A DNA stretch of 6,441 bases from Candidatus Thorarchaeota archaeon (GTDB taxonomy: Archaea; Asgardarchaeota; Thorarchaeia; Thorarchaeales; Thorarchaeaceae), in assembly GCA_003345555.1 (NCBI GenBank), contig PRDJ01000059.1:1-6441 (forward strand), written 5' to 3'. Below, piece after piece: positions 464 through 3,500 of the stretch. Position 1 is the first letter of the stretch; each line of letters begins with the position of its first letter. Below the pieces are notes generated by a model. It was not told where the DNA came from. It did not search any database and saw only the letters and a program-made list of their open reading frames with translations. The translations under genes were made by a program, and so were the position numbers.

Positions 464-630
464 GCAGCAGTTCATCTCGCTTCTTGGCTCCTGAGTGCAG
501 CCTCGGATCAGGTTCACGAGTCCGTTCTTCGAGGGTACTGGTTTGCAGCTCCTCGAGTAGAACACTTCCTCCCACTACTTCATGGTCAATATTGGCGCCA
601 CTCAAGAAGGCTGTCAAGATGGACCGTCGC
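464..630. ncRNA. Candidate structured non-coding RNA (rod-like fold, unknown family)
   Basis: Nested long-range complementarity: 464-479 with 615-630, CTTCTT 480-485 with AAGAAG 604-609, GAGTG 493-497 with CACTC 599-603, and GCC 500-502 with GGC 594-596. Internal hairpins CGGA/TCCG and GTTCT-TCGAGG...CCTCGA-GT-AGAAC. No convincing protein in any frame. Folded by eye only. Confidence 0.3.
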
Positions 631-652
631 AGCCGAAGTGCAGAATTGAATG

Positions 653-728
653 TGGAGCCCGCCAGGGGAGTCGCACCCCTCTAGAACAGATCTGCAGTCT
701 GTCGCGTAAGCTGATCCGCCAGACGGGC
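653..728 (-). tRNA. trnC: tRNA-Cys (anticodon GCA), 76 nt with encoded CCA, intronless, non-canonical D/T loops
   Basis: Minus strand reads GCCCGTC TG GCGG ATCAGCTT ACGC G ACAGA CTGCAGA TCTGT TCTAG AGGGG TGCGACT CCCCT GGCGGGC T CCA. Acceptor stem 7/7 (one U-G), D stem 3 bp plus G13-A22, anticodon stem 5/5, T stem 5/5. It has anticodon GCA, G37, discriminator U73 and G1-C72/C2-G71/C3-G70, as in archaeal tRNA-Cys. Confidence 0.9.
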
Positions 729-870: not shown

Positions 871-1158
871 ATGAAAGTTAAGGCTGTCCTCAGGGATGCT
901 GAGATCTTGCGCCTGCCAATTGGATCATCTGAACGTGTCCTGGCATCGGCCGAGAAGAACTTTGGCCGCGTAGTGAACCTATCAAGTCTCTTGAAGGTCA
1001 TGGGTCTACGCGCCGAAGATAGGTTGAAGATGCTTGAGATTCTGGAGCGCACTGGTGCCCACATCTGGCTGGCCCGTGAAGGCGACCAGCATCTGATATA
1101 TCTCAGCAAGAACGGACCTCCTCAGGACGAGGAATTCACTGGATATCAGTGGAAATAG
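871..1158 (+). CDS. Small hypothetical protein (95 aa), probable winged-helix fold
   Basis: ATG-started ORF with natural composition, divergent from the tRNA. The amphipathic pattern reads helix (SERVLASAEKN), strand (RVVN), helix (LSSLLKVMG), helix (AEDRLKMLEILERTG), then beta-hairpin (HIWLAREGDQHLIYL), matching wHTH topology. The fold is an inference. Confidence 0.78.
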   Translation: MKVKAVLRDAEILRLPIGSSERVLASAEKNFGRVVNLSSLLKVMGLRAEDRLKMLEILERTGAHIWLAREGDQHLIYLSKNGPPQDEEFTGYQWK

Positions 1159-2025: not shown

Positions 2026-2033
2026 TTTTTATG
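2026..2033. promoter_or_regulatory. TATA-like element shared by divergent TPR gene and cysS (TTTTTATG / CATAAAAA)
   Basis: Single AT-rich box in the 122-nt divergent gap, 33 nt upstream of the likely cysS TTG at 2067. An AGGT SD-like motif is present at 2056-2059. Confidence 0.45.
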
Positions 2034-2066
2034 TACTCTTTGGAAGACACACATCAGGTTCCTAGC

Positions 2067-3500
2067 TTGATACAAGTGTTCAACACGCTTACCCGGTCAA
2101 AGGAAGAGTTCGTACCGCTTGATGGAAAGAACGTCCGAGTTTACGCATGTGGGCCCACCGTATACGATTATCCGCACATTGGCAATGCTAGGTCATTCGT
2201 CGTGTTTGACACGATGAGACGCTACCTAGAGTACAGCGGATACAGGGTTCATTTCATCACCAACTTCACTGATGTGGACGACAAGATGATTGCGCGGGCC
2301 CACGATGAAGGCACTACAGTGGCGGAACTTGCCGCGAAGTTCATCGCGGAATATCAGAAAATCGCGAAGGAACTGAACCTGAAACCGGCAAATGCCAACC
2401 CCAGAGCCACAGAACACATCGATGACATGATTGACATGATCAAACGAATCGTAGAGAACGGTATGGGGTATGTTGTCGATGGAAACGTCTACTTCGATGT
2501 GAGCGCGTTCGCGGCCTACGGTAATCTGTCCAAGATGCCGGTCGACCAAATGACTGCAGAGGCCAGAATAGAACCCGATGAAAACAAGCAGGATCCACGA
2601 GACTTCGCCCTCTGGAAAGCTGAGAAACCGGGCGAGCCCTCATGGGATAGCCCGTGGGGAAAAGGAAGACCAGGATGGCATGCAGAGTGCTCAGCCATGA
2701 GCCGGCACTACCTTGGAGTCCCATTCGACATTCACGGTGGAGGACAGGATCTGATATTCCCTCATCATGAGAACGAAATTGCACAGACTGCCTCAGCGTA
2801 CTCGATAGAGACTCCAGTCAAGTACTGGCTTCACAACGGGTTCCTGACCATCAACAAGGAGAAGATGTCGAAATCCCTAGGCAACTTCTTCACTGCTCGC
2901 GAAGTTCTCGATCATTACAATCACCAAGCAGTCCGGTTGTTCTTGATATCAGCTCAATACCGGCAACCACTCGACTACAATCCTGAGGCACTCAACCAAG
3001 CGACTCAGTCTTTGGAAAGACTTCGAAACGCACTCGATGTGCTCGAAGGCAGACTATCGCTAATAGAGAAAGGCGGCGCAAAACCAGCCCCAGCGGACTC
3101 AAAGCTTGCCGAGGCAGTCAGGAAAGCCAGAGATGAATTCGAGAGGGAGATGAATGACGACTTCAATACGCCCGGCGCACTGGCAGAAGTGTTTACGCTT
3201 GTTAAGTCAGTGAATACATACGCCAGCAAAGTTGGCAAGGCTTCGGCCTTGAGAGAAGCTCGTTCTGCCCTGCTCGAGTTGATGGGTGTGCTTGGAATCG
3301 ACCTAGAGAAGAAGGCAGCTGGAGGTGCTTCAGAAAGCGATGAGCTGCTAAAGCAGGTGGTCAACCTGCTTCTCCAAATCAGAGAAGAAGCTAGGAAAAG
3401 CAAGAACTACGCCCTCTCCGACAGAGTAAGAAAGGGATTGGCTGATCTAGGCATCACGGTCTCAGACACAAAGGATGGCCCTACTTGGAAAACCGAATAG
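2067..3500 (+). CDS. cysS: Cysteinyl-tRNA synthetase (class Ia), about 477 aa
   Basis: YACGPTVYDYPHIGNAR (Zn-ligand Cys plus HIGH motif), NFTDVDDK, DFALWK, GRPGWHAECSAMS, DIHGGGQDLIFPHHENEIAQ and KMSKSLGN are present, plus a C-terminal anticodon-binding region (K.YALSDRVR..L...GI...D...G..W). The start is placed at TTG 2067 because IQVFNTLTRSKEEF matches the usual CysRS N-terminus. The ORF track's start at 1986 is probably too long. Confidence 0.97.
   Translation: MIQVFNTLTRSKEEFVPLDGKNVRVYACGPTVYDYPHIGNARSFVVFDTMRRYLEYSGYRVHFITNFTDVDDKMIARAHDEGTTVAELAAKFIAEYQKIAKELNLKPANANPRATEHIDDMIDMIKRIVENGMGYVVDGNVYFDVSAFAAYGNLSKMPVDQMTAEARIEPDENKQDPRDFALWKAEKPGEPSWDSPWGKGRPGWHAECSAMSRHYLGVPFDIHGGGQDLIFPHHENEIAQTASAYSIETPVKYWLHNGFLTINKEKMSKSLGNFFTAREVLDHYNHQAVRLFLISAQYRQPLDYNPEALNQATQSLERLRNALDVLEGRLSLIEKGGAKPAPADSKLAEAVRKARDEFEREMNDDFNTPGALAEVFTLVKSVNTYASKVGKASALREARSALLELMGVLGIDLEKKAAGGASESDELLKQVVNLLLQIREEARKSKNYALSDRVRKGLADLGITVSDTKDGPTWKTE

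What the first reader, a model, noticed from the sequence alone, without database searches (positions are those of the whole stretch)
653..728. tRNA-Cys with a rewritten elbow: no D-loop GG, GUGC instead of TPsiC, U15-G48
Seen in sequence: all four stems pair, and GCA, G37, U73, the first three acceptor pairs, an encoded CCA and an upstream TATA are present. Yet several near-invariant core positions differ together. The D loop is AUCAGCUU (no G18G19, no A21, U at 15), the T loop is UGCGACU (G55 instead of U/Psi55), and position 48 is G. In my alignment the changes fall on partner positions (A18/G55 and U15/G48, with G19-C56 retained), which looks like compensated remodelling rather than pseudogene decay. 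Established: the non-proteinogenic tRNA-Gly species of Staphylococcus, which donate Gly to peptidoglycan, lack the D-loop GG and have GUGC in place of GTPsiC. tRNA-Pyl also lacks GG/TPsiC, and the 15-48 pair matters for E. coli CysRS (G15-G48). Inference: this is either a specialised tRNA-Cys acting as a Cys/sulfur donor outside ribosomal translation, or a lineage-specific elongator that tRNA finders may under-score.
Basis: partly seen in the sequence, partly recalled or inferred. Interest (0 to 1): 0.85.

Follow-up and report, generated by a model that had tools for sequence, protein, structure and literature searches.

The report
Sole cysteine tRNA with swapped elbow
This is the only cysteine tRNA gene of a Thorarchaeota (Asgard) archaeon. 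It replaces one supposedly universal fold-locking contact (G18-Psi55) with A18-G55, a matched double change that recurs in Asgard cysteine tRNAs, so it is a working translation tRNA with an alternative elbow, not a special-purpose one.

Summary
Confirmed. Window 653-728 (minus strand) is a 76-nt tRNA-Cys(GCA) gene with D loop AUCAGCUU, T loop UGCGACU, G48, U73 and an encoded CCA.

G18/Psi55 becomes A18/G55, while G19-C56 and U54-A58 stay. G9, G13.A22 and Y21 are ordinary tRNA-Cys traits. U15/G48 is a genus-level swap of G15-C48.

The genome is a Thorarchaeota MAG. This tRNA-Cys type occurs in all 16 genera of its family (86 genomes searched), with stem covariation and a conserved BRE/TATA-like promoter. 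It is the only tRNA-Cys found here and in single-contig relatives. Cys codons are used normally (1.1%), there is one CysRS (1.3 kb away) and no SepRS. It is therefore the elongator, and the non-ribosomal-donor idea fails here.

Unique Asgard tRNA-Cys sequences:
- 61 A18/G55
- 29 G18/U55
- 3 C18/U55
- no A18/U55 or G18/G55

Sister lineages with similar tRNA bodies differ at these two sites, so the switch recurred. The TYMV-type tRNA-like consensus carries the same pair.

Rfam's tRNA model scores the gene 41.8 bits, but larger searches missed it three times.

This scan has noted the same swap on other DNA (phages, CPR bacteria, tRNA arrays). I found no paper describing it.

The parts
653..728 (-). 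tRNA-Cys(GCA) gene, 76 nt, with encoded CCA (653-655) and U73 (656)
   Evidence: ARAGORN. Model R1 scores it 97.2 bits. RF00005 scores it 41.8 bits with lax filters. Cloverleaf covariation.
693..695 (-). Anticodon GCA (positions 34-36); G37 is at 692
711..712 (-). A18 (712) and G19 (711) in the D loop. A18 stands where G18 is near-universal.
   Evidence: Sister lineages with canonical tRNA-Cys have G at the aligned position, for example AGCGGU against AGUAGU.
671..675 (-). T-loop core: U54 (675), G55 (674), C56 (673), G57 (672), A58 (671). G55 replaces U/Psi55.
   Evidence: G55 is invariant in 39 unique family sequences.
714..714 (-). U15, partner of G48 (681). This is a genus-level replacement of the G15-C48 Levitt pair.
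   Evidence: Only the window and G003 have U15/G48. The other family members have G15/C48.
681..681 (-). G48, partner of U15
707..716 (-). G13 (716) opposite A22 (707): an invariant non-standard fourth D-stem pair, typical of tRNA-Cys
   Evidence: all 14 distinct sequences unpaired at this position; PMC7566577
755..773 (-). Promoter-like element TTGCCGTAATGCTTAATAT (BRE/TATA-like), 27-45 nt upstream of G1
   Evidence: The motif TTGCCGAYATCCTTAAA is conserved at the same distance in most family loci.
2031..3500 (+). Class I cysteinyl-tRNA synthetase, the only CysRS in the genome and the presumed charging enzyme
   Evidence: Pfam tRNA-synt_1e at 436 bits, plus DALR_2 and CysS_C. Single genomic hit over the cut-off. 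The called product is 489 aa (P0001), so the start is probably 2031 rather than the TTG at 1986.

Best explanation
**What it is.** The gene encodes the single elongator tRNA-Cys of a Thorarchaeota archaeon.

**How it works.**
- It is transcribed from its own conserved BRE/TATA-type promoter.
- It is most likely charged directly by the one class I CysRS, encoded 1.3 kb away.
- It decodes UGU and UGC on the ribosome.

**The elbow.**
- The D-loop/T-loop contact G18-Psi55 is replaced by A18-G55.
- The stacking platform G19-C56, the U54-A58 reverse-Hoogsteen pair and G53-C61 are kept, so the L-shape should be preserved.
- In this genus the 15-48 Levitt pair has also switched, from G-C to U-G.
- The family-wide swap dates to the base of the family. 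Comparable swaps occurred repeatedly in other Asgard tRNA-Cys lineages.

**Shown and inferred.**
- Shown: gene, conservation, covariation, single copy, and the available charging enzymes.
- Inferred: the geometry of the A18-G55 contact (for example A N6-H to G O6, with G N1-H taking the role of Psi55 N3-H). Also inferred: normal L-shape, the lack of Psi55 on this one tRNA, and charging by the neighbouring CysRS.
For: **1. Real and conserved**
- ARAGORN finds it. Seven stem pairs have compensatory changes. The promoter is conserved.
- Model R1 finds the type at 87-105 bits in 16 of 16 genera of the family, among 86 genomes searched.

**2. Sole tRNA-Cys**
- No other GCA tRNA turned up with ARAGORN with introns, among 38 RF00005 hits (those ARAGORN had not already named were read one by one), or in a scan for G55 T arms.
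- Single-contig G044 and G082 and 10-contig G022 have only this one. Their next hits are Ser, Glu, Tyr, Ala and Lys.
- R1 scores canonical Asgard tRNA-Cys at 44-83 bits, so such a gene should have been seen.

**3. Needed for translation**
- There are 4,959 Cys codons in 891 long ORFs, 1.14% of residues.

**4. Charging route**
- One CysRS and no SepRS: the best hit is 49 bits against a cut-off of 381.

**5. Compensated swap**
- Unique Asgard tRNA-Cys sequences: 61 A18/G55, 29 G18/U55, 3 C18/U55, and no A18/U55 or G18/G55 (corrected).
- Three contrasts between related lineages share D-stem, T-stem or acceptor sequence but differ at 18 and 55:
  - f1 against sister family f2;
  - f5 g33 against f5 g20;
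  - f9 g24 against f9 g39.

**6. Structural precedent**
- The RF00233 (TYMV-type tRNA-like structure) consensus has D loop CAGU and T loop UGCAACU, the same pair.
- A review describes that elbow as nearly identical to a tRNA's (PMC4810234).

**7. Psi55 enzymes are present**
- Pus10 (460 bits) and Cbf5 (432 bits) are encoded, so only this tRNA lacks the substrate U55.
Against: - There are no expression, modification or aminoacylation data.
- The MAG is 93% complete, so a second tRNA-Cys in the missing part of this particular genome cannot be excluded. The claim leans on more complete relatives.
- The A18-G55 geometry and its equivalence to G18-Psi55 are inferred, not modelled.
- In yeast SUP4 no single change at G18-U55 was tolerated (PMC4117946), so the mutational path between the two states is unexplained.
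- Some other Asgard lineages carry an A18/G55 tRNA-Cys and a canonical one together. This leaves room for a functional difference between the two designs.
Confidence: 0.85

Rival explanations
1. The A18/G55 elbow is adaptive rather than near-neutral. It would make tRNA-Cys invisible or resistant to a factor that reads the universal U54-Psi55-C56 loop or G18. Candidates are a modification enzyme, a tRNA-targeting nuclease or a viral factor. The tRNA would still serve in translation. This adds to the best explanation rather than replacing it.
For: - The swap recurs in at least eight Asgard lineages, and only in tRNA-Cys there.
- It is fixed across a whole family.
- In the pattern scan it also appears in bacterial tRNA arrays where many tRNA species carry it.
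- Pus10 and Cbf5 are present, yet they cannot act on G55.
Against: - No candidate factor was identified.
- No gene was found whose presence tracks the swap.
- Repeated toggling in both directions is equally expected for two near-equivalent states under drift.
- Nothing here explains why cysteine in particular.
Confidence: 0.15
2. A specialised tRNA-Cys that donates Cys or sulfur outside ribosomal translation, like the non-proteinogenic tRNA-Gly of Staphylococcus.
For: - G55 and the loss of G18 are shared with the staphylococcal species (PMC4574755).
- In Odin-like and f9 Asgard genomes an A18/G55 tRNA-Cys coexists with a canonical one.
Against: - It is the only tRNA-Cys found in this genome and in single-contig relatives, while Cys codons are in normal use.
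- G19-C56 is kept, unlike in the staphylococcal tRNAs.
- The T stem has three invariant G-C pairs.
- No Fem-type gene lies in the window.
Confidence: 0.03
3. The variant tRNA-Cys was acquired by horizontal transfer from bacteria that have the same type (for example Saccharibacteria), possibly together with CysRS.
For: - Saccharibacteria tRNA-Cys has the same D stem (GCGG/ACGC), an AGUAGU D loop and a UGCAAAU T loop.
- The G9, G13.A22, Y21 combination is described as the common bacterial tRNA-Cys pattern (PMC7566577).
Against: - Sister family f2 has the same D and T stems with a canonical elbow.
- Two other family-level contrasts also show the change arising in place.
- Overall identity to the Saccharibacteria gene is only 51 of 79.
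- The closest named CysRS relatives are overwhelmingly Thorarchaeota or other Asgard archaea.
Confidence: 0.05
4. A decaying pseudogene or an assembly error.
For: - Single-sequence folding does not recover the cloverleaf and is no more stable than shuffled sequence (z = -1.04).
- Rfam missed the gene in larger searches.
Against: - The same two changes are seen in 39 unique sequences from independent assemblies.
- Stems show compensatory changes, and the promoter is conserved.
- No alternative tRNA-Cys was found.
Confidence: 0.01

Closest known systems
Canonical archaeal (Asgard) tRNA-Cys(GCA), for example the gene of sister family f2 (locus L096)
   Same: - GCA anticodon, U73, 7/4/5/5 cloverleaf.
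- G9, G13.A22, a short 7-8 nt D loop without position 17, G19-C56, U54-A58 and G53-C61.
- Often encoded next to CysRS.
   Different: - Position 18 is A, not G, and position 55 is G, not U. Psi55 therefore cannot form.
- In this genus 15-48 is U-G rather than G-C.
Valine-accepting tRNA-like structures of tymoviruses (Rfam RF00233; the TYMV structure is cited in PMC4810234)
   Same: - The consensus D loop CAGU and T loop UGCAACU carry the same A18/G55 combination, with G19-C56 kept.
- That elbow is described as nearly identical to a tRNA's.
   Different: - It is a viral 3' UTR element with a pseudoknotted acceptor arm, not a cellular tRNA gene.
- The window's tRNA matches only its T arm (11.8 bits).
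Non-proteinogenic tRNA-Gly isoacceptors of Staphylococcus (PMC4574755)
   Same: They lack G18 and U55.
   Different: - They also lose G19 and C56.
- They exist beside proteinogenic isoacceptors and bind EF-Tu weakly.
- They feed Fem transferases.
- Here G19-C56 is kept, the gene is the only tRNA-Cys, and the T stem is G-C rich.
E. coli tRNA-Cys with G15.G48 and A13.A22 (cited in PMC7566577)
   Same: - A non-standard 13-22 pair.
- An unusual 15-48 pair in the core of a tRNA-Cys.
   Different: - The E. coli elbow is canonical (G18, G19, U55).
- Here 15-48 is U-G, and only in this genus. Odin-like relatives have G15/G48.
tRNA-Pyl (PMC7609411)
   Same: It lacks the G18-G19 and T-Psi-C consensus.
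   Different: - tRNA-Pyl has one linker nucleotide, a 5-nt D loop, a 6-bp anticodon stem and a 3-nt variable loop.
- None of these applies here.

Membership tests
tRNA (Rfam RF00005) | Score at or above the gathering cut-off of 29 bits | tested here: met
   41.8 bits over the full model when 121 nt are searched. The hit was lost in three larger searches, most likely at the speed filters.
tRNA | Cloverleaf supported by covariation | tested here: met
   7 of 21 pairs change on both sides. Acceptor, anticodon and T helices are 100% paired in 14 distinct sequences.
tRNA-Cys | GCA anticodon and U73 discriminator | tested here: met
   Both are invariant in relatives.
tRNA-Cys | Core pattern G9, G13.A22, Y21, reported as common in tRNA-Cys (PMC7566577) | tested here: met
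   G9 at 720, G13 at 716, A22 at 707, U21
Canonical tRNA elbow | G18 and U55 (Psi55) | tested here: not met
   A18 at 712 and G55 at 674. The alignment to canonical sister sequences fixes the numbering.
Canonical tRNA elbow | G19-C56, U54-A58, G53-C61 | tested here: met
   All are invariant in the family.
Non-proteinogenic tRNA (staphylococcal tRNA-Gly type) | An extra isoacceptor beside a proteinogenic one | tested here: not met
   Only one tRNA-Cys was found in G000 and in G044, G082 and G022.
Non-proteinogenic tRNA (staphylococcal tRNA-Gly type) | Loss of G19 and C56 as well as G18 and U55 | tested here: not met
   G19 and C56 are retained.
Non-proteinogenic tRNA (staphylococcal tRNA-Gly type) | A Fem-type aminoacyl-tRNA transferase that uses it | tested here: inconclusive
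   None among the seven window ORFs scanned against Pfam. The rest of the genome was not searched for Fem-type genes.
SepRS-dependent tRNA-Cys | SepRS encoded in the genome | tested here: not met
   The best TIGR00470 hit is 49 bits against a cut-off of 381.
tRNA-Pyl-like scaffold | One linker nucleotide, 5-nt D loop, 6-bp anticodon stem, 3-nt variable loop | tested here: not met
   Two linker nucleotides, 8-nt D loop, 5-bp anticodon stem, 5-nt variable loop
TYMV-type tRNA-like structure (RF00233) | Full-model match at or above 40 bits | tested here: not met
   Only the T arm matches, at 11.8 bits. The shared feature is the A18/G55 pair in the consensus.

The most novel reading that the evidence does not exclude
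A18-G55 is a selected second design of the tRNA elbow rather than a neutral equivalent. It would insulate tRNA-Cys from something that reads the universal G18/T-Psi-C signature, such as a modification or quality-control enzyme, a tRNA-cleaving toxin or a viral factor. In Asgard lineages that keep both a canonical and an A18/G55 tRNA-Cys, the two would form functionally separate pools.
Probability: 0.15. Interest if true: 0.8.

Novelty: new variant of a known kind. Interest (0 to 1): 0.55.

Why it matters
G18-Psi55 and Psi55 itself are taught as near-universal in cytosolic elongator tRNAs.

- **An essential tRNA without Psi55.** Here an essential, single-copy elongator tRNA of a whole archaeal family does without them. 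The same matched swap has arisen again and again in Asgard tRNA-Cys.
- **A natural test case.** This gives a compensatory-pair experiment for how the tRNA elbow is locked. It also offers a defined substrate for asking what Psi55 and G18 are needed for: the Psi55 synthases Pus10 and Cbf5, RNase P, EF-1alpha and ribosome contacts.
- **An annotation warning.** Rfam's tRNA model missed this gene in three larger searches, so genomes of this group may be wrongly reported as lacking tRNA-Cys.

Tried and rejected
1. **Alternative pairing model.** I considered D-loop G-C pairing antiparallel with T-loop G55-C56. I rejected it because canonical sister sequences show a point change of the first G of GG to A. 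The pyrimidine after G19 is present in both designs.
2. **BLAST for orthologues.** BLASTN found them in only 13 of 24 family genomes. Covariance model R1 was needed.
3. **Second-tier R1 hits (36-52 bits).** I checked them as possible hidden tRNA-Cys genes. They are His, Thr, Tyr, Glu, Ser, Lys and Ala. The one canonical Cys is a bacterial-looking gene on a 511-bp contig of G066, probably contamination.
4. **Pattern scan of genome contigs.** It returned mostly chance matches in coding DNA and none of the Thorarchaeota genes. It did yield five bacterial A18/G55 tRNA-Cys genes.
5. **An apparent A18/U55 sequence.** This was a parsing error that ran into flanking DNA.
6. **SepRS route.** Rejected.
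8. **Literature.** No paper was found with A18 together with G55, or G18A with U55G, in a natural tRNA. Only open-access full text was searchable.
9. **Single-sequence folding.** It neither recovers the cloverleaf nor differs from shuffles, so it is uninformative here.
10. **Not attempted.** Protein structure and complex predictions, because no claim here rests on them.

Full report
**What is at 653-728**

ARAGORN calls a single tRNA in the window, tRNA-Cys(GCA), on the minus strand at 653-728.
- 7-bp acceptor stem, U8, G9;
- D stem GCGG/ACGC;
- D loop AUCAGCUU;
- anticodon loop CUGCAGA;
- variable loop UCUAG;
- T stem AGGGG/CCCCU;
- T loop UGCGACU;
- U73 and an encoded CCA.

There is one correction. 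The fourth D-stem pair is G13 opposite A22, which is not a standard pair. It is invariant in relatives. With G9 and a pyrimidine at 21, it is described as a usual tRNA-Cys pattern (PMC7566577). "No A21" is therefore not part of any rewriting.

**Genome context**

The window is a whole 6.4-kb contig of a 2.28-Mb archaeal MAG, 93% complete. It also encodes TFB, a TPR protein, a LarA-like protein and a class I CysRS.

The closest named CysRS relatives are overwhelmingly "Candidatus Thorarchaeota archaeon". One of them lies on the 3,157,342-nt contig that is genome G044 of the same family. The organism is therefore a Thorarchaeota (Asgard) archaeon.

Many of its tRNA genes carry introns, some at non-canonical sites. 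Every other tRNA found has GG in the D loop and UUCRA in the T loop. The only G55 T arm in a tRNA context is this gene.

**Is it real and conserved?**

BLAST found orthologues in 13 of 24 family genomes. Fifteen aligned sequences keep the cloverleaf. Seven pairs have compensatory changes, and three helices are fully paired.

Covariance model R1, built from them, finds the same type at 87-105 bits in all 16 genera of the family among 86 genomes searched. A promoter-like motif, TTGCCGAYATCCTTAAA, sits 27-45 nt upstream in most of them. In the window it reads TTGCCGTAATGCTTAATAT at 755-773. This is a maintained gene.

**Numbering of the elbow**

The sister family of the same class (locus L096) has the same D and T stems but a canonical D loop (AACGGCUG) and T loop (UUCAACU). 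Two further contrasts inside other Asgard families show related tRNA-Cys bodies that differ by G to A at the first G of GG and by U to G at position 55.

I considered a model in which the D-loop GC pairs with the T-loop GC, and rejected it on these contrasts.

Over all Asgard tRNA-Cys collected, the unique sequences divide as follows (with one parsing error removed):

| State | Unique sequences |
|---|---|
| A18/G55 | 61 |
| G18/U55 | 29 |
| C18/U55 | 3 |
| A18/U55 | 0 |
| G18/G55 | 0 |

A18/G55 lineages are f1, f3, parts of f5, four genera of f9, f14 g55, f21, f23 and f25. The switch has therefore happened many times, and G55 never occurs without A18.

The absence of intermediates fits the yeast SUP4 scan, in which no single change at G18-U55 was tolerated (PMC4117946).

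**The 15-48 pair**

Most family members have G15/C48. Only the window and G003 have U15/G48. This is a second compensated tertiary pair, at genus level. Elsewhere in Asgard tRNA-Cys the pair is G-G, A-U or G-U.

**Function**

Evidence that no second tRNA-Cys exists:
- ARAGORN with introns finds none.
- None turned up among the 38 RF00005 hits; those ARAGORN had not already named were read one by one.
- R1 finds none.
- Single-contig G044 and G082 and 10-contig G022 have only this gene. Their next R1 hits are Ser, Glu, Tyr, Ala and Lys.
- R1 scores canonical Asgard tRNA-Cys at 44-83 bits, so such a gene should have been visible.

Evidence that a tRNA-Cys is needed and how it is charged:
- The genome uses 4,959 Cys codons in 891 long ORFs.
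- It has one CysRS, 1.3 kb from the tRNA gene.
- It has no SepRS.

This is the elongator.

The staphylococcal non-proteinogenic tRNA-Gly also lack G19 and C56 and coexist with proteinogenic copies (PMC4574755). Neither holds here.

**How the elbow probably works**

Everything except 18/55 is canonical: the G19-C56 platform, U54-A58 and G53-C61.

The consensus of TYMV-type tRNA-like structures (RF00233) has D loop CAGU and T loop UGCAACU, the same A18/G55 pair. A review describes that elbow as nearly identical to a tRNA's (PMC4810234).

I infer that A18 takes the intercalated place of G18 and bonds G55, and that the L-shape is normal. This is inference and nothing here models it.

Pus10 and Cbf5 are encoded, so this should be the one tRNA in the cell without Psi55.

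**Detection**

RF00005 scores the gene 41.8 bits when 121 nt are searched. It was not reported in the window scan, the whole-genome scan or a ten-locus scan. Relatives with A18/G55 but G15/C48 scored 50-60 bits in the ten-locus scan. The loss is most likely at the speed filters. The "under-scored by tRNA finders" idea is thus supported for Infernal/Rfam. tRNAscan-SE could not be run.

**Wider occurrence and prior notes**

A pattern scan found the same tRNA-Cys type in Saccharibacteria, Opitutaceae and Dormibacterota. In the last two it lies inside tRNA gene arrays in which several other tRNAs also carry G55, most of them with AG in the D loop.

Earlier notes of this scan report the same swap in phages, CPR bacteria and tRNA arrays. 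These are unchecked AI notes. I confirmed the TYMV lead and saw bacterial examples myself.

I found no paper describing A18/G55 in natural tRNAs.

**Limits**

The MAG is incomplete, and the structure is inferred. Why cysteine, and whether the swap is neutral or selected, remains open.

Noticed in passing
L147 + L167 (G026); L190 + L236 (G141); L188 + L237 (G144); L149 + L219 (G032): Some other Asgard genomes carry two different tRNA-Cys genes, one A18/G55 and one canonical. They include an Odin-like 1.4-Mb closed genome and members of family f9. The two designs can therefore coexist in one cell.
   Followed up: partly
L203, L217 (f5 g43); L208 (f9 g24): A third elbow state in tRNA-Cys: C18 with U55 (D loops AGUCGAU, AGCCGUU, AGUCGUA with a canonical UUCAAAU T loop).
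   Followed up: no
L120, L126 (Opitutaceae); L137 (Dormibacterota): The bacterial A18/G55 tRNA-Cys genes lie in dense tRNA gene arrays. Several other tRNA species there also have G55 T loops, most with AG instead of GG in the D loop.
   Followed up: partly
window 871-1158 (+): A 95-aa ORF with no Pfam family is conserved (51-59% identity) beside the tRNA-Cys gene in at least five other family genomes (G007, G016, G009, G015, G013).
   Followed up: partly
G000 C10:88970-89025, C63:31571-31628; L204, L207, L210, L230: Introns lie inside the T loop of several tRNAs: Ala-GGC and Lys-UUU in this genome, and the A18/G55 tRNA-Cys of f9 genera g35 and g52. Many other non-canonical introns occur in this genome.
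   Followed up: no
L004 and L031 (G002): One same-genus MAG has two A18/G55 tRNA-Cys copies on different contigs that differ at a few positions. This may be strain mixture or a true duplication.
   Followed up: no
L068 (G066, 511-bp contig): A bacterial-looking tRNA-Gly(CCC) plus a canonical tRNA-Cys on a very short contig of a Thorarchaeota MAG, probably contamination.
   Followed up: partly
L147:2143-2215: A fluoride riboswitch match (RF01734, 49.4 bits, above the cut-off) about 570 nt downstream of the tRNA-Cys in an Odin-like genome.
   Followed up: no
L006/L047, L007/L045, L159, L154 and window 2031-3500: CysRS lies within about 1.5 kb of tRNA-Cys in several Asgard genomes, whichever elbow type they have.
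   Followed up: partly
window 464-643: Another first-stage note flags a roughly 170-nt structured segment just 3' of the tRNA gene. The ORFs overlapping the tRNA (461-649, 484-684, 586-786) look spurious.
   Followed up: no
L109 (Chitinophaga MAG): A tRNA-like sequence with a G55 T arm (UGCGAAU) and an odd anticodon loop turned up in the pattern scan.
   Followed up: no
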